Shown here piece by piece: positions 3,830 to 15,745 of a DNA stretch of 30,690 nt (position 1 is the stretch's first letter; each line of letters starts with the position of its first letter). This stretch comes from Fimbriimonadaceae bacterium (lineage in GTDB: Bacteria; Armatimonadota; Fimbriimonadia; Fimbriimonadales; Fimbriimonadaceae). Location of the stretch: NCBI GenBank assembly GCA_035248525.1, contig DATFHI010000273.1:1-30690 (forward strand). Direction: 5' to 3'. The notes beneath the pieces were generated by a model. It ran no database searches and was not told the origin of the DNA. It was given only the letters and a program-made list of their open reading frames with translations. Made by a program: the position numbers and the translations under genes.

Positions 3830-4330
3830 CTAGAATAGGGCGCCTTGAGGCTCAGATTCGAGTTCGACCTCACGGTGCGAGCGCAGATTTCCATGTTCGT
3901 CGACGTGTTGATAATCGATGCCCTTTTTAAGAATCGGTGGACCGAGTAATCGGGACCGATGGCACCGATGTGGGCGCAGGCAACCGCACATCAAAACGAT
4001 GCGATTCTTTGGGTCCGACGCCGCTTCCGTGAGTTTGTCTATCCCGAGTGCAAGATAGTCCGTCTGTCTGAGTGGTTCGATGTCAACCGAGTCAGGATCT
4101 TTGCAAAGTACTGCACTTCCCGTAATAGCGCCAAGCGTGTCGCCCATGTAGACGTAACGGATTTCGGTTTCCGACATGAGGAATGCAAGTCGCTCCCTGC
4201 GGAAATCTTCCCAATAAGCTGATTGCGGAACGGATCGGACATCCACCAAGTGACTGAACTTATATTGGCGGATCAAATCCAGGAACGCCTCGAACCCTCG
4301 ATTGCCGTAGCCGACGGAATAAAGGGTCAC
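3830..4330 (-). CDS. DUF488 family protein
   Basis: YSVGYGNR...LVDVRSVP, YVYMGDTLG and LMC...CHR motifs typical of DUF488. Start placed at GTG 4330, just after the upstream stop. Confidence 0.85.
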   Translation of the reverse strand: MTLYSVGYGNRGFEAFLDLIRQYKFSHLVDVRSVPQSAYWEDFRRERLAFLMSETEIRYVYMGDTLGAITGSAVLCKDPDSVDIEPLRQTDYLALGIDKLTEAASDPKNRIVLMCGCLRPHRCHRSRLLGPPILKKGIDYQHVDEHGNLRSHREVELESEPQGALF

Positions 4331-4340
4331 GGCGCTAAGG

Positions 4341-4895
4341 CTACGCTCGAGCTTTTTCGCGAATTGCACCGACGGGAACGGAATCTGATCGCTCCATTTC
4401 CTGCTTGCCGCGCTCGATGGTTGTAGCCACTTTCCCGACTACATTTTCCAGCTGGGTAAGTACATCCAGCGCATACTTCTCTGCTCCTCGACGCATGGAG
4501 ATGGATTCACGGTCGGCAGCATTTCGCATCTCTTCGCTCTGTGCCTTGGAAAGCTTCAGAATTTCGCTCTCTCCCACCATTTGCTGCTGCTGGAGTCGGG
4601 CTTGATCGATAATGCGTCCGGCTTCCTGTTGAGCTTCTGCAATGATCCGCTGCGCCTCTTTTTGGGCGCTCTCCAACGTCATCGTCGCGTCTTCTCGCGC
4701 CGACTCCACAATCCGGTCGGTCTCACGCACCGTGGCCGCTGCCGCCTTCACTTCGCTCGGAAGCGAAGCTCGAACCTTGGCGATCTGCATGCTGATCTCG
4801 TCTTTATTCAATCCCCAAACCAAGGGTCCACCCAGGCTTTTGGGGTTGTCGACGGCAAGTTCGTGCAGTTGATCGAGTAGGCGCAGAATATCCAT
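4341..4895 (-). CDS. Coiled-coil protein of the coaD-adjacent SepIVA/DivIVA-like family (often annotated 'ATPase' or 'ATP synthase B-like')
   Basis: MDILRLLDQL start, RASLP motif, long A/E/Q/R heptad-type repeats, and position directly downstream of coaD as in Actinobacteria and Firmicutes. Confidence 0.7.
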   Translation of the reverse strand: MDILRLLDQLHELAVDNPKSLGGPLVWGLNKDEISMQIAKVRASLPSEVKAAAATVRETDRIVESAREDATMTLESAQKEAQRIIAEAQQEAGRIIDQARLQQQQMVGESEILKLSKAQSEEMRNAADRESISMRRGAEKYALDVLTQLENVVGKVATTIERGKQEMERSDSVPVGAIREKARA

Positions 4896-4964
4896 AGGGC
4901 TCCGAAGTGAGGACGAATGAGTGGTCTACATTGTGGCACGAAGGTGCGGAATTGAACCTAAAAC

Positions 4965-5456
4965 TTATCCACCCACTTTTCCCAACGCTCGGTGGATAAC
5001 TTTTGCAACCGGCTCCGAAACTAGCTTTGTATAGTCCCCACCAAGGTTGGCCACTTCCCGAACAATGCTGCTGCTCAAGTAGCTGTACTCCCACTTGGTC
5101 ATTAGGAATACGGTTTCGATTTCGCTGTCCAGGCGTCGGTTAACCATCGCCATCTGAAATTCATATTCAAAGTCCGCGGTCGCCCGCAAACCTCTGACCA
5201 CTGAGCGCGCATTTTTTGACCTGACGAAGTCCACGAGCAAGCCCCTAAACGTCTCCACTTGCACATTGCCCAGGTGTGAAATGCTTTTTCTAATGGATTC
5301 CACCCGCTCATCTTCGCTCAGCAAATACTTCTTGGCAGAGTTCACGCCGACGCCAACGATAATGTCGTCGAACAGCGCCGCCGCCCGCTCGATAACGTCG
5401 AGATGCCCCAACGTTGGCGGATCGAACGAGCCCGGATAAATCGCAATTCGACGCAT
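4965..5456 (-). CDS. coaD: Phosphopantetheine adenylyltransferase
   Basis: AIYPGSFDPPTLGHLD, RGLRATADFEYE and LSSSIVRE motifs. Confidence 0.98.
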   Translation of the reverse strand: MRRIAIYPGSFDPPTLGHLDVIERAAALFDDIIVGVGVNSAKKYLLSEDERVESIRKSISHLGNVQVETFRGLLVDFVRSKNARSVVRGLRATADFEYEFQMAMVNRRLDSEIETVFLMTKWEYSYLSSSIVREVANLGGDYTKLVSEPVAKVIHRALGKVGG

Positions 5457-5471
5457 AGCAAATGAGGATAC

Positions 5472-6221
5472 TCAGCGGCGATCCACGACGCGCTCCATGA
5501 CTGGATAGTTGTCGCTACTCACCATCTCCTTCGCGCCATCGATGGTTCTGAACACCTGAACGAAGTATCCAGGTTTGCCTGAGTTCCGAATTTTGCCCGC
5601 CGCAGTTCGATCGCCGAGCTCAAACAACCCGGGATTTCGGACGTGGCGCACTTGCGTGTCCAATTGCACCCGCTTTGCCTGTCCGGCCCCATAGAATCCA
5701 ACTTCCAACCGATCTCCCTTTATTCCGGCCTCGATTCTTATCGAAAATGGGTAGGGATTTTTCAACTTCAAGTCGATGTTGTAGTAGGCAACTGCCGCAT
5801 CAAGCCCTGGGGGAACATAGTTCGGGGCAAAGCGGTGCCGGCAACGTTCGACGATTCCCAACCCGGCTCTCAGAGCGGCATTGTAGGTCGTAGTCGACGT
5901 TTGACATACACCTCCTCCGAAGCTATTTATCAGTTGGCCGTTGAAACTCACCGGCGCCTTTCGGTAACCCACATCTTTGGAAAATGATCCGACCCGTTCG
6001 TTGAAGGAGAACGTCTCCCCGGGCTGGATTACCGCTCCATTTAGCTTGGCGGCGGCCAGGTACGCGTTGTGCTTCTGATTGCGACTGCGGTTCTCGACCA
6101 TGGTTGAAAACCGTGCCAGGCAATGTTGTTTCGGCGCGGCAACCAAAGCGACCGCCCCGGTTGTAGCGAAGAGCGCCGCCGGCAGAACGGCAAGGAGCGT
6201 CCGTCTCCTAGAACGCGTCAT
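5472..6221 (-). CDS. VanW family protein with N-terminal signal/anchor and G5-like tail
   Basis: LNGAVIQPGETFSFN, GGGVCQTSTTTYNAAL, HRFAPNYVPPGLDAAV and DLKLKNP are VanW core motifs. Start overlaps the A2M stop (6218-6221). Confidence 0.92.
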   Translation of the reverse strand: MTRSRRRTLLAVLPAALFATTGAVALVAAPKQHCLARFSTMVENRSRNQKHNAYLAAAKLNGAVIQPGETFSFNERVGSFSKDVGYRKAPVSFNGQLINSFGGGVCQTSTTTYNAALRAGLGIVERCRHRFAPNYVPPGLDAAVAYYNIDLKLKNPYPFSIRIEAGIKGDRLEVGFYGAGQAKRVQLDTQVRHVRNPGLFELGDRTAAGKIRNSGKPGYFVQVFRTIDGAKEMVSSDNYPVMERVVDRR

Positions 6222-9200
6222 CTTGGCTGCACTTCCAAGCCGATTTCACGCGTGCTGGCATAGTCTTCGGGGTCGTACATGTTGCCGACTCGCGTGGGCA
6301 GCGCGTTGGACTTTCCGTCCGACTCAGCCCGCATGAAGTAAGTGAATTCCGAATCTCCGCTCGGTAAAGTTCGAGCGAAGAAGGATACGCGGTCATCGCG
6401 AATCACGGTTCTCGCCCACCACCAGCCCCATTCCTCATCCTCATACGGCTCGTCCCGCTCCGTTACCCGGCAATTGCTCGGCACGGGGTCCTCCACCATC
6501 ACAAACTGTCGTTCCCGACCGGAGTGGATCTTGACCACGACCTTGATCACTTCGCCGGACTGAATCTGCTCGACGATGCGATCGGACGGCCGGAATCGCA
6601 AGGTTCCGTCCTCCATCCGTTTCGCCTCCATTCGGTAGTAGGCGCGCTCTACTTTCAGGTCATTGCTGGCCACGAGTTCGCCCAATTTGTCATCGGGAAT
6701 GATCTGCTTCAGATCGGCGGTGTAGTAGCAAACCGAATTCCCCGCCTGCGAAATTTTCACCTCATTGGCGCCTGAATGCAGCTCCGACATCGGGACCGTG
6801 ACCTGCAATTCTGGCTGCAGTATTGAATTTCGATCGAAAATAACTCGTTGAACTTCCTTGCCGTTCACCGAAACAATGAGCGAGCCGTTCGGATTGGAGA
6901 GCTCTTTAGTCTTTGCCAGGTATGACGTCATCCCGATCAATACATAAGCGGTGTCACGCGTGCTCGACCAATATTCGCCTTTACGCGACGTCATAAGGTA
7001 GCGAACAACCTTCGGAATCAAGTCGGACTGGGGATCGAGTTCGACCAGTGCGGCAAGCGCGAGCGCGGTGCTTTCTTGACCCCATGAATACGGTTCCTCT
7101 GCCCAGCTCGCCACTTGAGGAGTTGCCTTGGCTTGAGCCTTCAGCTTCCTTAGAAACGACATCGCCAATTCCTCATTTCCGACGAGGCGAGCGGTCATTG
7201 CGCCAATCGCCAGCTCCGGCGCTCGCCATGCTTTGGAATCAGCTTTCAAAACGCTCGCGGCTGCTTCCGTTCTCCCATTCGATGCCAGTGCAAAGCCGAG
7301 ATAGACCCTATCCCGGGCAATATCTTTCTTCCCTTGGTCGGAGTTCAGCCTCTTTTGCGACCAGTCCAGGGCTCGATCGATCATGGATTGATCCACCCTC
7401 AGGCCCGCTAACCGGGCTCGGTGCAGCCCATCGAGGACCAATGCGGTCATGAACGGATCGGAATCATCGAATTCCCACCAACCCCAACCGCCGTCGCCGT
7501 GCTGCATCTTCGCCAGTCGAGTCAATCCATCGGCGGCAATCGCCGGCACTTTCGCGCGGAGATCTGGACGGGACAATCCCAACTTGCCAAGCGCTTGGTC
7601 GACCAGGATCGCCGGCAGGAAGCGACTCATCGTCTGTTCCACACAGCCATACGGATAGTCGACCAGGCCGTCGAGGGATTGAACCAGCGTTGAGGCAATC
7701 GATGGACTCAGCGAGACCACCAATCGTCCGCTGTTGGGGTCCGCGCCATCACGTATTGTCACATTGAAGGAAGCCTCTCCCTTTACGATGCCCGAATCGG
7801 AGGACTGGAACTCTCGACCGTGCGCCTTCACTTCAAAGGTGGATTTGACGCCATCGTTCGCGCCTCCGGCGATTTCCGCGGTCGCTACAAGTTCTGCTTG
7901 ACCAGTGCGCTGGGCGGTCGCCGTCCATTCGATTGTTTGAGGCTTACCCGGCTCCACCCGTATGGTTTGAGAAGTTTGTCCGTCAAGGGTTATTCCGGTA
8001 GGTGTCACCCCAACCCGAACATCTGCGGCCTGTCCGGTGTCGTTTTGCACCGTCGCCGTTACCTTTTGTTGGTCTTGAACGACCATAAATTGCGGCGTCT
8101 GCAACTTGATCATCAGCGGTTTGCTCGCCACGACCTGCTCGGTTGCCATTCCAACCGCCGTCCGGTCGGTGACTGCCACGACAGTCGCTCGCCATGTCGT
8201 TAAGTTGTCGGGAAGCGTCACCGAAACCCTCGCCGAACCGGTGGCGTCGGTCTGCACGGAGGGAGCCCAGAACGCGGTGTCTTTGAAGAGGGTCCGGATC
8301 GGCACGTTCCCGGCCCCCTTATCACCACCGTCTAAATAAATTTCGGGGAAGGAATAGCTCGTGACCACGGAGACGTTTCTTCTCGGGAAGAATCCTATGA
8401 ACGGGTCCGTGCTGTCCTCCATGATCGCGTAGATGGACTCGTCGACCACGGCCAATGACAGGTCGGCAGAAACGGGCTGACCCGACTTGTCCTTTGTCGT
8501 CACGAAATACGTAACGGTCTGACCAGGCAAAACCTTTTCCCTATCGGGAACCACCGCCACCTGGAGTTTCTGCTCCGATAGGTTGAGAACCATCGAAGAT
8601 CCCGCCTCGTAGAACTGCTTTTCGCGGATGTAAGCGACTGCTACCTGGGCGTTTGGCGCGAACTGTTTCGTGACCGGAATCTGAACAATGGTCACGGACT
8701 GGGTGAGATTCACCACACTTTCGTAAAGAACCTCGTCAGCCTCAACGGTGAACAGCGCGAATCCGCCCGGCTTGTCCGTTTGAATTAATGCTCGAGCCGT
8801 TTCTCCAACCTCATACTTCTTTTTGTCGAGAGTTACCGTGAGCTTTCCACCCGGTCTCGCCGGAACTCCGGCGCCCTCCACATAGAAATAGGTTGAAGAC
8901 TCAATTTCGTGCTTCTGCTCGTCGACGGCGGTGGCTTTGAAGACAAGTGATCCGGCTTTGCGAGGCGTGTAGGTTACGGTTCCACTTCCATCCGGACCCG
9001 TGGTCGCCTGAAGTGTGTCCAGAGGTTCGAAGTGGACTTTGTCGCCACTCCAATTTTCCTCTCCGGCGACGATTTTAAATGCAATGCCGGATAAAGGTTT
9101 ATCTTCGGCGTGCGAGGAAGCGTGCACCTTGATTTCAACGGGCTTCCCAACGTCTCCAATGTAGTCGCTCGCTTCGACCCCGGTATCGAAGAGGCCGCGC

Positions 9201-10894
9201 GTCACCTTTACGGATCCTTCGCCTTCGAAGTATTTGTCACCCTCGTCGGCGGCGGAGACGCTCAAGGTGTAGAGATAATCGGTGTCGGACCCGTAATTCT
9301 CCTCTTCGGGTTTGCTCGTATCGAATTCGACGATTGCCTCTCCGTTCGCGTCTGAGACGGCCTCGAGGTTATCCAAGCCTTCTCCGGAACCACTGTCGTC
9401 CGAATACATCTCCCCCTCTTCATCCATCCAAGTCCAAGATGGCGCACGGGAAACGTACGCGTCGATCTTCGCACCTACCACGGGCCCCCCGTGGTAGTAC
9501 TCGCATTTGATCCTCATTTGCGCGGGCTCGCCGAACACATAAAAGTCCTTTAGGGGCTCGACGGTGATCTTGAATTCCGGCTTTCGGTAAGCCGCAATGC
9601 TGATGTCGAGGGTGCCTTCACCGCCGGGACCGGTGGTCGTTAATCGATAATTTCCCGGCTTTGCCTCCCGGTTGGTCGCAAATGAGCCATTGAACGTACC
9701 GCGATTGGAAACGTTGAGATCAAAGGACTTAATTAGATTTTCATCCGGGTCTTTAACTTCGACCTTGACTTTCCCCTGTCGCGGGACCGCGAAGTCGACG
9801 CCGCTCAGCACGCGGGCGATCCCCTTGAATTCAATCGTGTCGCCCGGTCGGTAAATGGGTCGATCTGAATAAAGAAAAACGCGGCCCGATCCGGCCTGGT
9901 TATCCCCGGACCGAGAATAGTAGTCCACCAAGGCGACTGATTCGCCTTTCTTGGCCACGAGGAGTTGATGTTCGCCCGCGGTCCGGCCAACGTGGACCGT
10001 GCCCGAAGGGCTCGTAATGCCAACCTGCTTTAATCCCTGATCGGTTGCAAGTCCAATTGCCGCATCTGAAATGGGTTGACCGGACTGCAGGTCGGCCACG
10101 TAGCACATGGTGTCCTTTTCGCCCGACTTGGTGACCATTCCGATCGTCGACACGTTGACATAAGTGCCGCGATCCACATTCTTTGCCCGACAACGCACCC
10201 AGTAAAACCCCTCCGGAAGGGACTCTAGGGAGACCGTCTCGACGAATACGCCTTCGGCATCGCGATTGGAGAAGGAGTGGCTGACAGTGCGGACCTTTTT
10301 GCCGTATTTTTCAGGCTCATCCCTTCGGGACGCGTACCGGGAAAAACCTTCTAGCAGGTCCCTAACGCTTCCCTTCTTGACGATATCCGTCAAATTCAGC
10401 TTGTAAATATCGATGCTGACTTTTTCGGATGCCAAAAAGCCGTCCGCTTGGAAGCTTGGTTGCTCAGAAGGCAAGAACACCTTTTGGCTTGTATTGAGGT
10501 CCAGGTACGGCTCGCTTGGGTTCATCGCGAGCTCGAGAACGGTGGGCTCACCCTCCCCGATGGTGACTCTTTGGCCCTCTAACCGATGTGCCTTCGCATA
10601 AGCGTAAATCTTGTACGTTCCGGCAGGAATATTCTTGATGCTGAAGTGGCCGCTTTCATCCGACGTCATAGTCCGCTGGCGATAGGCGTCATCCTCCTCT
10701 TCACTAATCGGTCCAATGCTCAGAGCCACCCCGCTAATGGCTCGACCATTTTCCTTGAGCATAACTTTGCCTTGGAGCCCGCCCATCGGCACTTCTTCCG
10801 TAATGCCGGCTGATAGCAATCCGCCCGCAATTCCTAGCGAGGCGAGGAGGGACAAGCCCTTGATGGCAACAAGTCCACGGTTCAATCCTTTCAT
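6218..10894 (-). CDS. Bacterial alpha-2-macroglobulin family protein with intact thioester motif
   Basis: 1558 aa. MG2 motif (SDRPIYRPGDTI), DLSLAVVDE, FKDTAFW, LPDNLTTWR, thioester YPYGCVEQT, QHGDGGWGWW, and receptor-binding C-terminus (VEDPVPS, RDDRV, MYDPE). The N-terminal carboxypeptidase-regulatory-like beta domain (SDESGHFSIKNIPAGTY) follows a hydrophobic anchor. Confidence 0.96.
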   Translation of the reverse strand: MKGLNRGLVAIKGLSLLASLGIAGGLLSAGITEEVPMGGLQGKVMLKENGRAISGVALSIGPISEEEDDAYRQRTMTSDESGHFSIKNIPAGTYKIYAYAKAHRLEGQRVTIGEGEPTVLELAMNPSEPYLDLNTSQKVFLPSEQPSFQADGFLASEKVSIDIYKLNLTDIVKKGSVRDLLEGFSRYASRRDEPEKYGKKVRTVSHSFSNRDAEGVFVETVSLESLPEGFYWVRCRAKNVDRGTYVNVSTIGMVTKSGEKDTMCYVADLQSGQPISDAAIGLATDQGLKQVGITSPSGTVHVGRTAGEHQLLVAKKGESVALVDYYSRSGDNQAGSGRVFLYSDRPIYRPGDTIEFKGIARVLSGVDFAVPRQGKVKVEVKDPDENLIKSFDLNVSNRGTFNGSFATNREAKPGNYRLTTTGPGGEGTLDISIAAYRKPEFKITVEPLKDFYVFGEPAQMRIKCEYYHGGPVVGAKIDAYVSRAPSWTWMDEEGEMYSDDSGSGEGLDNLEAVSDANGEAIVEFDTSKPEEENYGSDTDYLYTLSVSAADEGDKYFEGEGSVKVTRGLFDTGVEASDYIGDVGKPVEIKVHASSHAEDKPLSGIAFKIVAGEENWSGDKVHFEPLDTLQATTGPDGSGTVTYTPRKAGSLVFKATAVDEQKHEIESSTYFYVEGAGVPARPGGKLTVTLDKKKYEVGETARALIQTDKPGGFALFTVEADEVLYESVVNLTQSVTIVQIPVTKQFAPNAQVAVAYIREKQFYEAGSSMVLNLSEQKLQVAVVPDREKVLPGQTVTYFVTTKDKSGQPVSADLSLAVVDESIYAIMEDSTDPFIGFFPRRNVSVVTSYSFPEIYLDGGDKGAGNVPIRTLFKDTAFWAPSVQTDATGSARVSVTLPDNLTTWRATVVAVTDRTAVGMATEQVVASKPLMIKLQTPQFMVVQDQQKVTATVQNDTGQAADVRVGVTPTGITLDGQTSQTIRVEPGKPQTIEWTATAQRTGQAELVATAEIAGGANDGVKSTFEVKAHGREFQSSDSGIVKGEASFNVTIRDGADPNSGRLVVSLSPSIASTLVQSLDGLVDYPYGCVEQTMSRFLPAILVDQALGKLGLSRPDLRAKVPAIAADGLTRLAKMQHGDGGWGWWEFDDSDPFMTALVLDGLHRARLAGLRVDQSMIDRALDWSQKRLNSDQGKKDIARDRVYLGFALASNGRTEAAASVLKADSKAWRAPELAIGAMTARLVGNEELAMSFLRKLKAQAKATPQVASWAEEPYSWGQESTALALAALVELDPQSDLIPKVVRYLMTSRKGEYWSSTRDTAYVLIGMTSYLAKTKELSNPNGSLIVSVNGKEVQRVIFDRNSILQPELQVTVPMSELHSGANEVKISQAGNSVCYYTADLKQIIPDDKLGELVASNDLKVERAYYRMEAKRMEDGTLRFRPSDRIVEQIQSGEVIKVVVKIHSGRERQFVMVEDPVPSNCRVTERDEPYEDEEWGWWWARTVIRDDRVSFFARTLPSGDSEFTYFMRAESDGKSNALPTRVGNMYDPEDYASTREIGLEVQPR

Positions 10895-12294
10895 TCAGAA
10901 GCCACCTCGGGCTCAACGGTTTCTGGCTTGGAAACAAATGCGACGAGCGCTCCAAGTCCCAGCGCAACGCCTGCGATCCAATAGAAGGCGATCTGCTTCT
11001 CTTCCCGAGTCAGATCCAACAACTTTGTGAACCAATTGTAGGATACAGCGACGAGAGCGCCGAGCCCCCCGGTCAAAGCGATCGGCAGAATGCTTGAGCC
11101 TCCCCGAAGTCCATCGACGAACGCGGCAAAACCCAATCCCGCGACAAATCCGACGATTCCCTTTGCGCCGAGGACTACGGCCATTGCGACGGGAATCAGG
11201 GCAAGGATAAAACTCCAGATCAATCGTCCGAACCCGGACGTGAGCGATTCGCTCCACCTTCTCTGAACCCATTCCGTAGGGAAAAGCGCGGCGAGCATTC
11301 CAAACGCCATGCCGATAACCGCGTAGTGCTGCCCCAAATCGAGCGCCCGAACCGTATCGGGGTGCGATTCTCTAAGCACGCGGTAGAAAGCAAGGCCGAT
11401 CAATGGACCGGCGGATTGCAGAGCCCGGCCATTCTCCAACATGAGAAGGCTTGCTCCCGCCCCGACGGCGGCAATGGCGATGCCGAACCCCTTGAAGAAT
11501 GAGAAAGCAAGGGTGGCAATGGCGATCCAGATAACGGTTCCAATTAAAAAGCTGAAGGAATCGTTGGAGCCATCCGGCCTGATCAACGTATTCAACACGA
11601 GTCCAACCAGCACGGCGCCGTCGAAAATCATCCAGGCTTCACGGCTCTCAACCAGGCGACTCCCCACGACATAGCCGAGGATTAGGAGAATTCCGACCCC
11701 AAGATATCCGCCAACTCCCGATGAGCGATCCGCTTTTGGCCGGGAAACCAACATCCCGAGCATCGAACTGACCGCGGTCGCCAAACCAAATAGCGTGCCC
11801 GTCATTCCGGCGGGGGTCGTCTCTATCGCCTGCGCTCCCATGAAGTCAGCAGCAAAGCACAGGGCGACCAGCGCCGCAGTTATGAGCGGCAGGGAGTTTT
11901 TCTTTACCAAACTGAAGTCGCTGCAGGTCCAGGCTCCGAATGCAAATCCCACGATCGACGCCATCATCGCGGCTTCCCCATAGGACGGGTCGAGCCAAGC
12001 GGTAATTCCGCTCAAACCGGCGGCAACGCCCGCCGCGGTTGCGGTATGTGAGAGTCGATATCCCTCTGCAATTCGCAGGACAAAGCAGATCGCAACCGAG
12101 ACCGCGAAAGCAACCGCCGCGGGGAGCAATTGACTGAACTGATCCCGCCAAATGTAGCCGCCAATCAGCACGGCAACAATGATCGCGAACGCGGCAAGAG
12201 GATTATTTCGGGCGGGACGGGTCGAGACTGACGGCGAAAGGAGAAAGGCGGTGATCGCGATTCCGAAGGCGATAAGGGGAAATGCCGTGTTCAT
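10891..12294 (-). CDS. Polytopic membrane protein, possibly a degenerate membrane-pyrophosphatase (HppA)-like scaffold
   Basis: 467 aa, almost entirely hydrophobic helices. Segments such as GFGIAIAAVG, IVGFAFGA and LIPVAMAVVLGAKGIVGFVAG recall HppA TM helices, but the catalytic loops are absent. The CDS is secure; the homology is tentative. Confidence 0.6.
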   Translation of the reverse strand: MNTAFPLIAFGIAITAFLLSPSVSTRPARNNPLAAFAIIVAVLIGGYIWRDQFSQLLPAAVAFAVSVAICFVLRIAEGYRLSHTATAAGVAAGLSGITAWLDPSYGEAAMMASIVGFAFGAWTCSDFSLVKKNSLPLITAALVALCFAADFMGAQAIETTPAGMTGTLFGLATAVSSMLGMLVSRPKADRSSGVGGYLGVGILLILGYVVGSRLVESREAWMIFDGAVLVGLVLNTLIRPDGSNDSFSFLIGTVIWIAIATLAFSFFKGFGIAIAAVGAGASLLMLENGRALQSAGPLIGLAFYRVLRESHPDTVRALDLGQHYAVIGMAFGMLAALFPTEWVQRRWSESLTSGFGRLIWSFILALIPVAMAVVLGAKGIVGFVAGLGFAAFVDGLRGGSSILPIALTGGLGALVAVSYNWFTKLLDLTREEKQIAFYWIAGVALGLGALVAFVSKPETVEPEVASE

Positions 12295-12493
12295 ATTTAG
12301 TTTTGATCAAGGGTCGTTTTCGAACAAGATACGCGCAACTCGATGGAGAGTAACGATACTTTTATGCGATTCTTTCAAGGAATGCAATTCCGCACGCTGT
12401 CCAATTCAAGGATGCTTCAAAATTCATGACGGAATCAATCGGCATTTGATGCTCAAAAGCACCGACTTGGGGGCATATCTCACAATAGATTGG

Positions 12494-13657
12494 ATGCGAA
12501 AGATCGCGGTTGGAATTGGATTCGCTTTAATTGCCGCGATCGTCGGCCAATCTTTCGCACCTCTGACCTACTCCACCGCAATCCGTTCGCTCGTTCGAGA
12601 CCATTGCGTGGAATGTCACCGGGACGGGGGCAGCGGACCATTTCCGCTTCAAACCTATGAACAGGTCAAGAGGCGCGGAAGCCTGATCCGCCAAGTCGTA
12701 TTGAACGGCCAGATGCCCCCCATCGACGCGGACTCCGACGTGGCGAAGCTTTCCCGGATCGTGCAAATCAGCCGTGCTAATCTTCGGGAATTGCAGGCTT
12801 GGTTTCGTGCCGGAATGCCAAAAGGCGATACAACCGAACCCATTCAATTCGCTGATTTAGTGGTTCCGGGAATGGTCTCGGTTCAGGTCGGGGCGGACAG
12901 AAAGATTCCCGCTGAGGGCCAAATTGTGAGAATCTACTATCCCGTCGATCTGCCGGATGGGTTCAGCTCCGGAATTAGCGGATTTCGGGTTAAGCCTAAG
13001 AGCCGCCAGTCGGTGCGTCAGGCCATCTTGGCGGTCCAAGCTCCTGGTCAACCTGCGCCTTTCACGGAGTCTGGGTTACGTCCAAACGTTGCGGCGGCCG
13101 CCATGAGCGATGGATACAACGAATGGAAATGCGCGAATGCGCCGTTGCCCGTGCCCAAGGGAGCCCGGCTTTGGATGGAATTGACCGTTATCCCGTCGGG
13201 CAAGTCCGAGTCTGCAGAGGCCACCCTGGAATTGATACCGGCAACGGGTTCCGCGCCAATCGTGAGGACGCTCGGAAGATCAACGTTCGTCGTGGAACCA
13301 GAGTCCCAAGCGGTTCTGCGCGACGAATGGACTCTCGACCGTGACCTTCATTTGGTCTCGGCTCTGCCCCAAGCAAAATTCCGCACCGCCCAATTGCGGC
13401 TATATGCAAAGTCTGACGGTGTGGAGCGGACATTGCTGAGGGTCAACACTTGGGACCCCGCTTGGCCCGGGGCGTATAACTTCCCAATGCCAATTCTGCT
13501 GAAGAAGGGCGAAACCATAGGTTACGAGGCGATTATCGACAATTCCAAGCATGGACATGGCGCCGACAACGATAAAACCGAGCGCTTGGTGTTTGGTCCC
13601 AACGCACAAAATGAGCTGTTTTGGTGTCATCTTTATTTCAGCCCTACGCAACCATGA
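12494..13657 (+). CDS. Secreted c-type heme (CxxCH) plus PHM/DBH-like monooxygenase-fold protein lacking copper ligands
   Basis: Signal peptide, then CVECH (12605-12619), PFPLQTY...MPP, then PHM-like segments (IPAEG, W..W...Y....PILLKKG, DNS, FGP...E). Start at ATG 12494. Confidence 0.75.
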   Translation: MRKIAVGIGFALIAAIVGQSFAPLTYSTAIRSLVRDHCVECHRDGGSGPFPLQTYEQVKRRGSLIRQVVLNGQMPPIDADSDVAKLSRIVQISRANLRELQAWFRAGMPKGDTTEPIQFADLVVPGMVSVQVGADRKIPAEGQIVRIYYPVDLPDGFSSGISGFRVKPKSRQSVRQAILAVQAPGQPAPFTESGLRPNVAAAAMSDGYNEWKCANAPLPVPKGARLWMELTVIPSGKSESAEATLELIPATGSAPIVRTLGRSTFVVEPESQAVLRDEWTLDRDLHLVSALPQAKFRTAQLRLYAKSDGVERTLLRVNTWDPAWPGAYNFPMPILLKKGETIGYEAIIDNSKHGHGADNDKTERLVFGPNAQNELFWCHLYFSPTQP

Positions 13658-14248: not shown

Positions 14249-15745
14249 ATGGGAGAAACCACACTCGACAAAATCTTCGTTGGCAAGGGAGAGAACGATG
14301 TCTACTTGCTGTCCAAGTACGGAAACCGGCACGGCCTGATTGCCGGAGCAACCGGAACCGGAAAGACCGTCACCCTGCAAATCCTTGCCGAAGGCTTCAG
14401 CAAGATTGGGGTTCCCACGTTCATGGCCGACGTCAAGGGCGACCTTGCCGGATTGGCTATGCCGGGCGGCGGCAACCCCAAACTGGAGGAGCGCGCCACT
14501 CAAATCGGGCTAACAAGTTATGTTCACGAAAGCGCGCCGGTAGTTTTTTGGGATCTTTATGGCCAGCAGGGGCACCCGATCCGCAGCACGATTTCTGAAA
14601 TCGGGCCGCTGATGTTGAGTCGCATGATGGACCTGAACGACGTTCAGGAAGGCGTCCTCAACATCGCATTCCGAGTCGCTGATGAACAGGGTCTGCTGCT
14701 TCTGGACTTGAAAGATTTGCGTGCGATCCTGGCCGAGATCAGCGAGCATGCCGACGAACTCCAGAGGGAATACGGGAACGTCAGTCCGACGTCGGTAGGA
14801 GCCATCCAGCGGAGCCTACTCGTTCTCGAAGAACAGGGCGCGGCAAGTTTCTTTGGCGAACCTGCCCTGGATATCCGCGACTTCATGAGAACCGGACTCG
14901 ATGGTCGGGGGATTGTAAATGTGCTGGCGGCCGACAAGTTGATGCAAAGCCCTCGGCTCTACGCAACCTTCCTTCTCTGGCTTTTAAGTGAATTGTTCGA
15001 AGATCTGCCGGAAGTTGGAGATTTGGACAAGCCGAAACTGGTTTTCTTCTTCGACGAAGCCCACCTCCTGTTCAACGATGCTCCTCCTTCACTCATTGGA
15101 AAGATCGAGCAGGTCGTGCGACTGGTCAGGTCGAAGGGCGTCGGAGTTTTCTTTGTCACACAGAATCCGATCGACATCCCGGATACCGTTCTCGGTCAGC
15201 TTGGAAATCGATTCCAACATGCTCTCCGAGCCTTTACGCCCCGCGACCAAAAAGCCGTCGATTCCGCCGCAGAGACTTTCCGCGTCAATCCCAAGTTCAA
15301 GACCGAAGACGCGATTACGCAGTTAGGCGTGGGCGAAGCGCTGGTTTCGGTGCTCGAGGACAAAGGAATCCCATCCATTGTCGACCGGACATTCATCCGT
15401 CCGCCCGCCTCAAGATTGGGAGCAATTACCCCCGAAGAGCGCCAGCAGGTCATATTCTCGAGTCCGCTACGCGGTCGCTACGACACTCCGGTCGACCGCG
15501 AGTCTGCCTATGAAAAACTGAAGGTTAAGGCGGAAGCGGCGGCGGAGCAGCAAGCCAAGGCGGAGCAAGCCGCCGCCGAAGAGAAGCAACGCGCGGTAGA
15601 GGAAAAGGCCGCCGCAAAGCCAGCGGGACGGCGCTCCGACAGCGTTTTGGAAGCGCTCGGGAAGTCCGTAGTTCGAAGCGCCGGCAGCCAGGTCGCTCGC
15701 AGCTTGATGCGAGGAATTTTGGGCGGATTGTTCAAGGGAAGGTAG
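14249..15745 (+). CDS. DUF853 / YjgR-like HerA-family P-loop ATPase
   Basis: NRHGLIAGATGTGKT Walker A, ADVKGDL, FFFDEAHLLF Walker B, LVRSKGVG and QHALRAFTP. Confidence 0.93.
   Translation: MGETTLDKIFVGKGENDVYLLSKYGNRHGLIAGATGTGKTVTLQILAEGFSKIGVPTFMADVKGDLAGLAMPGGGNPKLEERATQIGLTSYVHESAPVVFWDLYGQQGHPIRSTISEIGPLMLSRMMDLNDVQEGVLNIAFRVADEQGLLLLDLKDLRAILAEISEHADELQREYGNVSPTSVGAIQRSLLVLEEQGAASFFGEPALDIRDFMRTGLDGRGIVNVLAADKLMQSPRLYATFLLWLLSELFEDLPEVGDLDKPKLVFFFDEAHLLFNDAPPSLIGKIEQVVRLVRSKGVGVFFVTQNPIDIPDTVLGQLGNRFQHALRAFTPRDQKAVDSAAETFRVNPKFKTEDAITQLGVGEALVSVLEDKGIPSIVDRTFIRPPASRLGAITPEERQQVIFSSPLRGRYDTPVDRESAYEKLKVKAEAAAEQQAKAEQAAAEEKQRAVEEKAAAKPAGRRSDSVLEALGKSVVRSAGSQVARSLMRGILGGLFKGR

What the first reader, a model, noticed from the sequence alone, without database searches (positions are those of the whole stretch)
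5472..12294. Candidate new envelope-defence module: membrane scaffold + thioester alpha-2-macroglobulin + VanW, translationally coupled
Seen: three genes joined by 4-nt stop/start overlaps (10891-10894, 6218-6221). The A2M keeps the CVEQ thioester (7634-7645), has a very short bait-like segment (YLDGGDKGAG), a non-lipoprotein N-terminal anchor and an extra carboxypeptidase-regulatory-like domain. Known: thioester-bearing bacterial A2Ms (YfhM type) usually pair with the PBP1c gene pbpC, and YfaS types with yfaATQP; neither partner is here. VanW domains are linked to peptidoglycan or vancomycin-resistance loci. Inference: VanW replaces PBP1c as the wall-repair partner, and the polytopic protein anchors or signals for the trap.
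Basis: partly seen in the sequence, partly recalled or inferred. Interest (0 to 1): 0.72.

Follow-up and report, generated by a model that had tools for sequence, protein, structure and literature searches.

The report
Macroglobulin, wall cross-linker, pyrophosphatase-like membrane partner
A soil bacterium of the phylum Armatimonadota keeps three tightly coupled genes together: a thioester protease trap, a cell-wall cross-linking enzyme, and a membrane protein shaped like an ion-pumping pyrophosphatase that lacks its catalytic parts. I found this version of the bacterial macroglobulin operon in no paper, and it makes the old "trap and mend" idea testable.

Summary
Three minus-strand genes are joined by ATGA overlaps: M (467 aa, polytopic), a 1558-aa A2M with an intact GCVEQ thioester, and a 249-aa VanW protein.

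- **Conservation:** The order M-A2M-VanW holds in every one of 62 Fimbriimonadales loci that is long enough. Divergent M homologues (hhalign 99.9%) extend it across Armatimonadota, about 57 of 150 sampled genomes. Flanking genes are not conserved. In three genomes the genes are dispersed but all kept.
- **VanW:** Shown in 2024 to be an L,D-transpeptidase domain. Its Cys-His-Asp residues are invariant here, and this short form has no PG-binding domain.
- **PBP1c and AMMECR1:** No PBP1c marker and no AMMECR1 were found in this genome or in the three or four near-complete relatives searched for each.
- **M:** The model matches the whole 16-helix membrane-pyrophosphatase fold (Z 33.8), but every catalytic loop is missing.
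- **Elsewhere:** A Bacillota lineage fuses A2M to VanW behind an AMMECR1 gene.

This scan had already noted A2M-VanW pairs and fusions on other DNA. The pyrophosphatase-like partner is the new element here. I found no paper describing either.

This is a new variant of a known kind.

The parts
10891..12294 (-). M: 467-aa polytopic inner-membrane protein with the membrane-pyrophosphatase fold and no catalytic loops
   Evidence: ORF. No Pfam or NCBIfam hit. AF2 model pLDDT 88.9, pTM 0.91. VIA Z 33.8, rmsd 3.3 over 427 aa against H+-PPase 6afx; next unrelated fold Z 5.7. hhalign against HppA: prob 80.7, E 1.3e-5, with the catalytic motifs falling in gaps of M.
11323..11388 (-). M aa 303-324 (FYRVLRESHPDTVRALDLGQHY): the most conserved segment. 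It is inferred to be the periplasmic loop between helices 12 and 13 and a candidate docking site.
   Evidence: D319, Q322 and Y324 are invariant in 19 Fimbriimonadales sequences. R305 is near-invariant phylum-wide. The side of the membrane is inferred from the hhalign register and the known M-PPase topology.
10891..10894 (-). ATGA stop/start overlap between M and A2M
   Evidence: conserved in 36/60 loci
6218..10894 (-). Thioester alpha-2-macroglobulin, 1558 aa
   Evidence: Pfam domains. Nearest solved structures are A2ML1, Salmonella A2M and E. coli YfhM. It is the only A2M in this genome.
10805..10873 (-). A2M N-terminal hydrophobic segment (about aa 8-30): signal anchor or signal peptide; no conserved lipobox
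10523..10777 (-). CarboxypepD_reg-like domain, aa 40-124, directly after the hydrophobic segment
   Evidence: Pfam PF13620, E 1.5e-12, above the curated cut-off. A2M matches start within the first 40 query residues, so they cover the domain, in most full-length orthologues of the phylum.
8279..8425 (-). Bait-position segment, aa 824-872, with invariant K859 (8318-8320) and R867; short and conserved
7634..7645 (-). CVEQ thioester codons (C1084-Q1087)
   Evidence: GC[VTA]EQ is present in 59 of 61 orthologues.
6266..6658 (-). C-terminal bMG10 domain with RDDR (aa 1499-1502) and NMY (aa 1538-1540) lock motifs
   Evidence: Motif meaning taken from PMC4498604. xMY is present in 60/61 orthologues and RDDR in 21/61.
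6218..6221 (-). ATGA stop/start overlap between A2M and VanW
   Evidence: conserved in 42/58 loci
5472..6221 (-). Short VanW-domain protein (249 aa), a predicted L,D-transpeptidase with an N-terminal hydrophobic segment and no PG_binding_4 domain
   Evidence: Pfam. C106 (5904-5906), H129 (5835-5837) and D141 (5799-5801) are invariant in 61 orthologues. These short forms make a separate clade from the PG4-type VanW proteins.

Best explanation
This is a self-contained, translationally coupled three-gene envelope module, conserved across Armatimonadota.

1. The A2M is exported across the inner membrane of a diderm cell and stays at or near it through its N-terminal hydrophobic segment. It works as a thioester protease trap of the bacterial Type I kind: cleavage in the bait-position loop exposes the Cys1084-Gln1087 thioester.
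2. The short VanW protein is a dedicated Cys-His-Asp L,D-transpeptidase. It has no peptidoglycan-targeting domain of its own, so it is brought to its place of action by its partners. There it makes 3-3 type cross-links in the wall next to the trap. This is "trap and mend", the role proposed for PBP1c beside ECAM.
3. M is a degenerate membrane pyrophosphatase. It keeps the 16-helix core but has lost the PPi-hydrolysing loops and has no conserved ion-gate residues. It serves as the inner-membrane platform that holds or stabilises A2M and VanW, much as MagB does for MagD.

Shown: gene structure, conservation, domain content, catalytic-residue conservation, the fold of M, and the absence of PBP1c and AMMECR1 markers. 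Inferred: localisation, every physical contact, and all three activities.
For: - **Synteny:** The trio is present in 24 of 40 relatives and the A2M-VanW pair in 6 more. All 62 Fimbriimonadales loci show the order wherever the contig allows. By my reading, about 57 A2M-VanW neighbour pairs occur in about 29 family codes among 150 phylum genomes.
- **M upstream:** An M homologue lies upstream in 13 of 14 loci from other families, hhalign 99.9%, E 2.9e-37.
- **Unit boundaries:** Flanks are not conserved; the best flank cluster is in 8 of 58 loci. 4-nt overlaps are conserved.
- **Co-loss and co-retention:** The six relatives without A2M also lack M and the short VanW. In G102, G150 and G061 the three genes are unlinked but all retained.
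- **Fusion:** A2M::VanW occurs in Bacillota with an intact GCVEQ and GGGVCQ.
- **VanW activity:** LDT activity of the domain is published in PMC11348318, and the triad is invariant here.
- **Other markers:** PF06832 is absent. Omp85 is present.
- **M fold:**
- **Precedent:** MagB as membrane partner of MagD, PMC5764988.
Against: - No experiment or expression data exist. No RNA run holds the locus.
- The bait-position segment is more conserved than the protein average and has a fixed length. That is unlike a broad-spectrum bait and fits a specific, perhaps endogenous, cleavage event.
- The module is near-universal in a free-living soil phylum. This fits a housekeeping wall function at least as well as defence.
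- A2M has its own hydrophobic N-terminus, so it does not obviously need M as an anchor.
- No multimer prediction could be run.
- The genomes also carry YkuD LDTs and a second, PG4-type VanW. Wall mending as such does not require this enzyme.
Confidence: 0.5

Rival explanations
1. Housekeeping wall-remodelling complex rather than defence. In this reading the A2M-like protein is cut at its conserved bait-position site by a specific endogenous periplasmic protease or autolysin, which it captures or regulates. VanW then matures the local peptidoglycan as part of normal growth.
For: - The bait-position segment is conserved in sequence and length, with invariant K859 and R867.
- The same motif is present in the Bacillota fusion.
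- The module is present in most genomes of a free-living soil phylum.
- MagD is processed in vivo at a defined site (PMC5764988).
Against: - The module was not found in about a quarter of the sampled genomes, including near-complete ones, so it is dispensable.
- The thioester and the lock motif xMY are kept as in defence-type ECAM.
Confidence: 0.2
2. VanW acts on the A2M itself. As E. coli LdtA-C attach Lpp through a lysine, the dedicated transpeptidase would link a peptidoglycan stem peptide to a lysine of A2M (candidate: invariant K859) or to its processed N-terminus. This would tether the trap covalently to the sacculus.
For: - The short VanW lacks any PG-binding domain and forms a dedicated clade that travels with A2M.
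- It is fused to the C-terminal MG domain of A2M in Bacillota. In ECAM that domain contacts the bait and the thioester region (PMC4498604).
- K859 is invariant in 61/61.
- 45 of 61 orthologues end in R or K.
- LDT-mediated protein attachment is established knowledge for YkuD enzymes.
Against: - A similar GDGDDLKRGGK stretch is present in the pbpC-linked Salmonella A2M, so the lysine is not specific to VanW-linked forms.
- The C-terminal residue is mostly Arg, which is not a transpeptidation acceptor.
- No VanW enzyme has been shown to attach proteins.
Confidence: 0.13
3. M is an active transporter or energy or signal coupler rather than a passive platform. Its retained pyrophosphatase-type helix core would conduct ions or relay a conformational signal between the cytoplasm and the periplasmic A2M-VanW pair.
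For: All 16 helices of the pump core are retained with high model confidence. M is kept even when unlinked from its partners.
Against: Across 26 diverse sequences only glycines and R305 are near-invariant. No conserved intramembrane acidic or lysine residues correspond to an ion gate, and no cytoplasmic domain is left.
Confidence: 0.08

Closest known systems
Type I bacterial alpha-2-macroglobulin operon: E. coli yfhM (ECAM)-pbpC and Salmonella SaA2M (PMC5764988, PMC4498604)
   Same: A CxEQ thioester A2M of about 1550-1650 aa with MG domains, BRD, TED and a C-terminal MG domain carrying the xMY (and here RDDR) motif. It is located at the inner-membrane face of a diderm periplasm and is encoded next to a peptidoglycan cross-linking enzyme.
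   Different: - The partner is a VanW L,D-transpeptidase (Cys nucleophile, 3-3 links), not the class A PBP1c.
- No lipobox.
- An extra N-terminal CarboxypepD_reg domain.
- The bait-position segment is about 13 residues shorter and conserved.
- A third, polytopic gene comes first in the operon.
Type II operon magABCDEF of P. aeruginosa / yfaATSQP of E. coli (PMC5764988)
   Same: A multi-gene operon in which a membrane protein (MagB) localises and stabilises a non-lipoprotein A2M at the inner membrane. This is the best precedent for the proposed role of M.
   Different: MagD has no thioester. MagB has a single helix and is unrelated to M. None of the mag partner families is present here.
AMMECR1-A2M-VanW modules and A2M::VanW fusions of other phyla
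   Same: A thioester A2M with the same YSFPE.Y.GG.DK bait-position motif is functionally tied to a VanW domain. A third gene sits directly upstream of A2M.
   Different: Elsewhere the upstream gene is an exported AMMECR1 protein. In Armatimonadota it is M, and no AMMECR1 was found in the four genomes searched. The fused VanW lies outside the clade of Armatimonadota short VanWs.
VanW-domain L,D-transpeptidases Ldt4/Ldt5 of Clostridioides difficile (PMC11348318)
   Same: VanW catalytic domain with conserved Cys, His and Asp, and an N-terminal membrane segment.
   Different: No PG_binding_4 and no recognisable G5 domain. Only 249 aa. Diderm host. Dedicated to an A2M operon.
Membrane-integral pyrophosphatases (H+-PPase of Vigna radiata 4a01/6afx; Na+-PPase of Thermotoga maritima 4av3/6qxa)
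   Same: The whole 16-helix fold superposes (Z 32-34 over about 425 residues). There is weak but detectable profile similarity (E 1.3e-5).
   Different: - M is 467 aa against about 700.
- The GGG..KAADVGADLVGKVE, DNVGDNVGD and DxxGPIxDNA/GNTT catalytic segments are absent.
- There is no Pfam H_PPase hit.
- A canonical HppA is encoded elsewhere in the same genomes.

Membership tests
Type I bacterial A2M (ECAM/SaA2M type) | CxEQ thioester motif in a TED domain | tested here: met
   GCVEQ at aa 1083-1087. TED Pfam hit. Motif present in 59/61 orthologues.
Type I bacterial A2M (ECAM/SaA2M type) | MG-domain ring, bait-region domain and C-terminal MG domain with lock motifs (RDDR, ExMY) | tested here: met
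   Pfam bMG3, MG2, A2M_BRD, A2M, bMG10. RDDR at 1499-1502 and NMY at 1538-1540. xMY in 60/61 orthologues but RDDR in only 21/61.
Type I bacterial A2M (ECAM/SaA2M type) | N-terminal lipobox (inner-membrane lipoprotein) | tested here: not met
   No cysteine at a conserved position after the hydrophobic segment in 61 orthologues.
Type I bacterial A2M (ECAM/SaA2M type) | Adjacent pbpC (PBP1c) | tested here: not met
   The neighbour is VanW. PF06832 was not found in G000 or four relatives of 98-99% completeness; controls gave hits.
Type I bacterial A2M (ECAM/SaA2M type) | Covalent trapping of proteases after bait cleavage | not testable with these tools
   Needs biochemistry.
Type II bacterial A2M (MagD/YfaS type) | No thioester; six-gene mag/yfa operon | tested here: not met
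   The thioester is present. The operon has three genes, and no flank gene is shared by more than 8 of the 58 loci compared.
VanW-domain L,D-transpeptidases | PF04294 domain above the curated cut-off | tested here: met
   E 1.4e-45, 154 bits against a cut-off of 27.
VanW-domain L,D-transpeptidases | Conserved Cys-His-Asp catalytic residues | tested here: met
   C106, H129 and D141 are invariant in 61 orthologues. The triad is defined in PMC11348318. Their spatial arrangement was not checked.
VanW-domain L,D-transpeptidases | 3-3 cross-linking activity | not testable with these tools
   Four of the seven foreign VanW proteins tested in PMC11348318 showed no activity, so activity cannot be assumed.
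Membrane-integral pyrophosphatase (H_PPase, PF03030) | 16-helix fold | tested here: met
   Z 33.8, rmsd 3.3, 427 aa aligned over residues 9-766 of 6afx.
Membrane-integral pyrophosphatase (H_PPase, PF03030) | Family profile match | tested here: not met
   No Pfam hit at E 0.01. The PF03030 genome search finds only the canonical hppA genes. hhalign against HppA gives only 80.7%.
Membrane-integral pyrophosphatase (H_PPase, PF03030) | Cytoplasmic PPi-binding acidic and lysine motifs | tested here: not met
   The motifs fall in gaps of M in the profile alignment. Across 26 M sequences G386 (beside the start M1) is invariant and only G66, G271, R305 and G332 are near-invariant.

The most novel reading that the evidence does not exclude
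The module is a covalent tethering machine. The dedicated VanW transpeptidase would use A2M as its acceptor substrate (candidate: invariant K859 in the bait-position loop), so that the trap is stitched to peptidoglycan. The ex-pyrophosphatase M would be the assembly platform. M would also be the first known member of the membrane-pyrophosphatase fold recruited to a job unrelated to pyrophosphate.
Probability: 0.12. Interest if true: 0.82.

Novelty: new variant of a known kind. Interest (0 to 1): 0.62.

Why it matters
Since 2004 the idea that bacteria pair a protease trap with a wall-mending enzyme has rested only on the yfhM-pbpC neighbourhood. Here an unrelated wall cross-linking enzyme, an L,D-transpeptidase recognised only in 2024, takes the same place. 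It does so phylum-wide, with co-loss, with co-retention after unlinking, and with a gene fusion in another phylum. That is independent genomic support for a functional partnership between A2M and peptidoglycan cross-linking.

The idea becomes testable in a cultured species, because Fimbriimonas ginsengisoli encodes an M homologue; whether its A2M and VanW genes lie beside it was not checked here.

Separately, M shows that the membrane-pyrophosphatase fold has a non-enzymatic offshoot. Every fold match above Z 6 was a pyrophosphatase. A dedicated pseudo-enzyme of this kind is a new object for people who study these pumps.

For annotation, about 60 species-level genomes can have "hypothetical protein" replaced by a family name for M, and "vancomycin resistance protein" by a function for VanW.

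Tried and rejected
- **Literature:** searches for VanW with alpha-2-macroglobulin, and for macroglobulin with pbpC/yfhM, found no paper on this arrangement.
- **Promoter and terminator scan, 4200-12700:** counts equal to shuffles, uninformative.
- **Expression:** no RNA holder listed.
- **The look-up of encoding contigs:** The context of the fusion was obtained with the search for related loci instead.
- **ESM Atlas for M:** its own model was poor (pTM 0.27) and the hits were below lead level.
- **A1 profile against PDB sequences:** no pyrophosphatase hit.
- **VanW against PDB sequences:** no match at E 0.01.
- **C-terminal anchoring of A2M by a terminal lysine:** rejected as the main idea because the last residue is Arg in 33 and Lys in only 12 of 61.
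- **NCBIfam hit to an anammox S-layer protein:** only the CarboxypepD_reg domain matches.
- **Origin of the A2M link in VanW:** the quick tree leaves the fused forms unresolved, so one origin against several cannot be decided.
- **coaD as a fourth operon gene:** it follows VanW by 15 nt here and in three same-genus loci, but not elsewhere.
- **Not done:** The second structure job was not used.

Full report
**What is in the sequence.**
On the minus strand lie three ORFs: M at 10891-12294 (467 aa), A2M at 6218-10894 (1558 aa) and VanW at 5472-6221 (249 aa). Both junctions are ATGA stop/start overlaps.

Pfam places these domains on the large protein:
- CarboxypepD_reg, aa 40-124
- bMG3 and MG2
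- A2M_BRD, aa 685-823
- A2M, aa 873-961
- TED, aa 1069-1179
- bMG10, aa 1413-1543

PYGCVEQTMS is read at 7625-7654. The small protein is a VanW domain, E 1.4e-45. M matches nothing in Pfam or NCBIfam. The genome is a Fimbriimonadaceae MAG, 84% complete, with a single A2M gene.

**Is the trio real?**
- *Close relatives.* Among 40 relatives, 24 have M, A2M and VanW in this order on one strand, counting four split only by contig ends and one with a 2.8-kb insert. Six more have the A2M-VanW pair. Six lack A2M, and these also lack M and the short VanW; they keep only a roughly 470-aa VanW paralogue.
- *Fimbriimonadales.* A pattern scan of one genome per species returned 62 loci from Fimbriimonadales/Armatimonadota MAGs, two of them under other organism names that look mislabelled. 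Every locus long enough shows M, then A2M, then VanW.
- *Whole phylum.* In 150 Armatimonadota genomes a full-length A2M orthologue is present in 113. By my reading of the coordinates, the short VanW lies directly downstream in about 57 genomes from about 29 family codes.
- *M outside the order.* In 14 loci fetched from other families, 13 have a 480-590-aa ORF directly upstream of A2M. The fourteenth (L092) was unclear. The profile of the 13 matches the M profile over its full length (hhalign 99.9%, E 2.9e-37).
- *Unit boundaries.* Nothing else is conserved around the trio; the best flank cluster is in 8 of 58 loci. The 4-nt overlaps recur in 36 of 60 and 42 of 58 junctions.
- *Exceptions.* In G102, G150 and G061 the three genes sit at three different places, yet all are kept. 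In G137 and G039 the A2M has a different length and no M is found.

**The VanW partner.**
A 2024 PNAS paper showed that VanW domains are L,D-transpeptidases with an essential Cys and a proposed Cys-His-Asp triad. It also reported that four of seven foreign VanW proteins gave no activity (PMC11348318).

- In 61 orthologues C106 (GGGVCQ), H129 and D141 are invariant, and all have an N-terminal hydrophobic segment.
- The protein has no PG_binding_4 domain, unlike the long paralogue of the same genomes.
- In a quick tree the Armatimonadota short forms make one clade (SH-aLRT 99). That clade excludes the phylum's own long paralogue.
- No PBP1c marker domain was found in this genome or in four relatives of 98-99% completeness, while the controls gave hits.
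- YkuD LDTs and Omp85 are present, so the cell is diderm and already has other LDTs.

**The A2M.**
- *Nearest solved structures.* These are A2ML1, Salmonella A2M and E. coli YfhM.
- *Thioester and lock motifs.* The thioester motif is kept in 59 of 61 orthologues. The xMY lock motif of the C-terminal MG domain is kept in 60 of 61. RDDR is present here and in 21 of 61.
- *N-terminus.* There is no conserved lipobox. An 18-20-residue hydrophobic stretch runs straight into the CarboxypepD_reg domain. Anchor against cleaved signal peptide stays open.
- *Bait-position segment (aa 824-872).* It is about 13 residues shorter than that of SaA2M. It is more conserved than the protein average (entropy 1.63-1.79 against 2.25). 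Its length is fixed in 52 of 61 orthologues, and K859 and R867 are invariant. The Bacillota fusion carries the same motif. A similar lysine-bearing stretch also exists in SaA2M.

**The membrane protein M.**
- *Model and fold.* An AF2 model built from 19 sequences is confident (pLDDT 88.9, pTM 0.91). Foldseek's top hits are all membrane pyrophosphatases. VIA-align gives Z 33.8, rmsd 3.3 Å over 427 residues spanning residues 9-766 of the Vigna H+-PPase. It gives Z 32.4 for the Thermotoga Na+-PPase. The next fold scores Z 5.7.
- *Sequence relation to HppA.* A profile comparison with the phylum's own HppA gives 80.7%, E 1.3e-5. The PPi-binding segments of HppA fall into gaps of M.
- *Conserved residues.* Across 26 diverse M sequences only G386 (beside the start M1) is invariant, and only G66, G271, R305 and G332 are near-invariant. 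This argues against catalysis and against a conserved ion gate.
- *Topology.* The hhalign register, the known pump topology and the positive-inside rule place both termini and the conserved segment aa 303-324 on the periplasmic side. This is an inference.
- *Distribution.* Profile searches found M only in Armatimonadota, including Fimbriimonas ginsengisoli. Both searches are limited by their seeds, so absence elsewhere is not shown.

**Wider context.**
Earlier notes of this scan reported A2M-VanW pairs and fusions, usually with an exported AMMECR1 protein, in several phyla. I checked this directly.
- P0345 (HHY31544.1, a Bacillota MAG, 1721 aa) is a complete A2M with GCVEQ fused to a VanW domain with GGGVCQ.
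- In two metagenome loci the fusion gene is directly preceded by an AMMECR1 gene.
- No AMMECR1 was found in this genome or in three near-complete relatives.
- So in Armatimonadota M occupies the slot that AMMECR1 has elsewhere.
- P0125, a partial bMG10+VanW protein, falls inside the Armatimonadota short clade. It rests on one 2.8-kb contig.

**Reading.**
The genomic facts make a functional A2M-VanW-M partnership very likely. What the partnership does is inferred. I favour "trap and mend" on an inner-membrane platform, at 0.5. The closest precedents are ECAM-PBP1c and MagB-MagD (PMC5764988).

Two observations keep rivals alive:
- The conserved bait and the near-universal presence in a soil phylum favour a housekeeping role.
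- The lack of a PG-binding domain and the fusion to the C-terminal MG domain favour the idea that VanW acts on A2M itself.

No paper in the searched library describes the arrangement.

Noticed in passing
L105:1-2817 (G009) and the other Fimbriimonadaceae hppA genes; own genome G000:C299:414-1553: The canonical membrane pyrophosphatase of Fimbriimonadaceae and of the sister family code f5 has an insertion of about 260 aa at Pfam model position 298, in one open frame of about 1050-1200 aa. Three other families of the order lack it. The insert has no Pfam hit.
   Followed up: partly
L043 and L079: Two public MAG records titled Methanoregulaceae archaeon and Methyloversatilis discipulorum carry typical Armatimonadota M-A2M-VanW loci. 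Mis-binning or mislabelling is likely.
   Followed up: no
L089 and L096: Two A2M orthologues from other Armatimonadota families have no GCxEQ motif although M and VanW are still adjacent. These may be thioester-less derivatives of the module.
   Followed up: no
window 4965-5456 (-): coaD (phosphopantetheine adenylyltransferase) starts 15 nt after the VanW stop, here and in three same-genus loci only. It is probably read through from the module in this genus.
   Followed up: partly
G015:C1:25178-27958: One family member has a 2.8-kb insertion between A2M and VanW. Its content was not examined.
   Followed up: no
L125:3088-4470 (G061): In the genome where the trio is dispersed, the short-type VanW lies in a 460-aa open frame, about 200 aa longer at the N-terminus than usual. 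This may be a different start or an added domain.
   Followed up: no
window 14249-15745 (+): HerA-like ATPase (PF05872, E 5e-233) a few genes upstream on the other strand. It shows no link to the module.
   Followed up: no
G137, G054 and other g47 genomes: A second Armatimonadota A2M type of about 1500 aa lacks the N-terminal CarboxypepD_reg part. In the two g47 loci examined (G137, G054) it has neither M nor a short VanW beside it. This fits the idea that the extra domain and M go together.
   Followed up: partly
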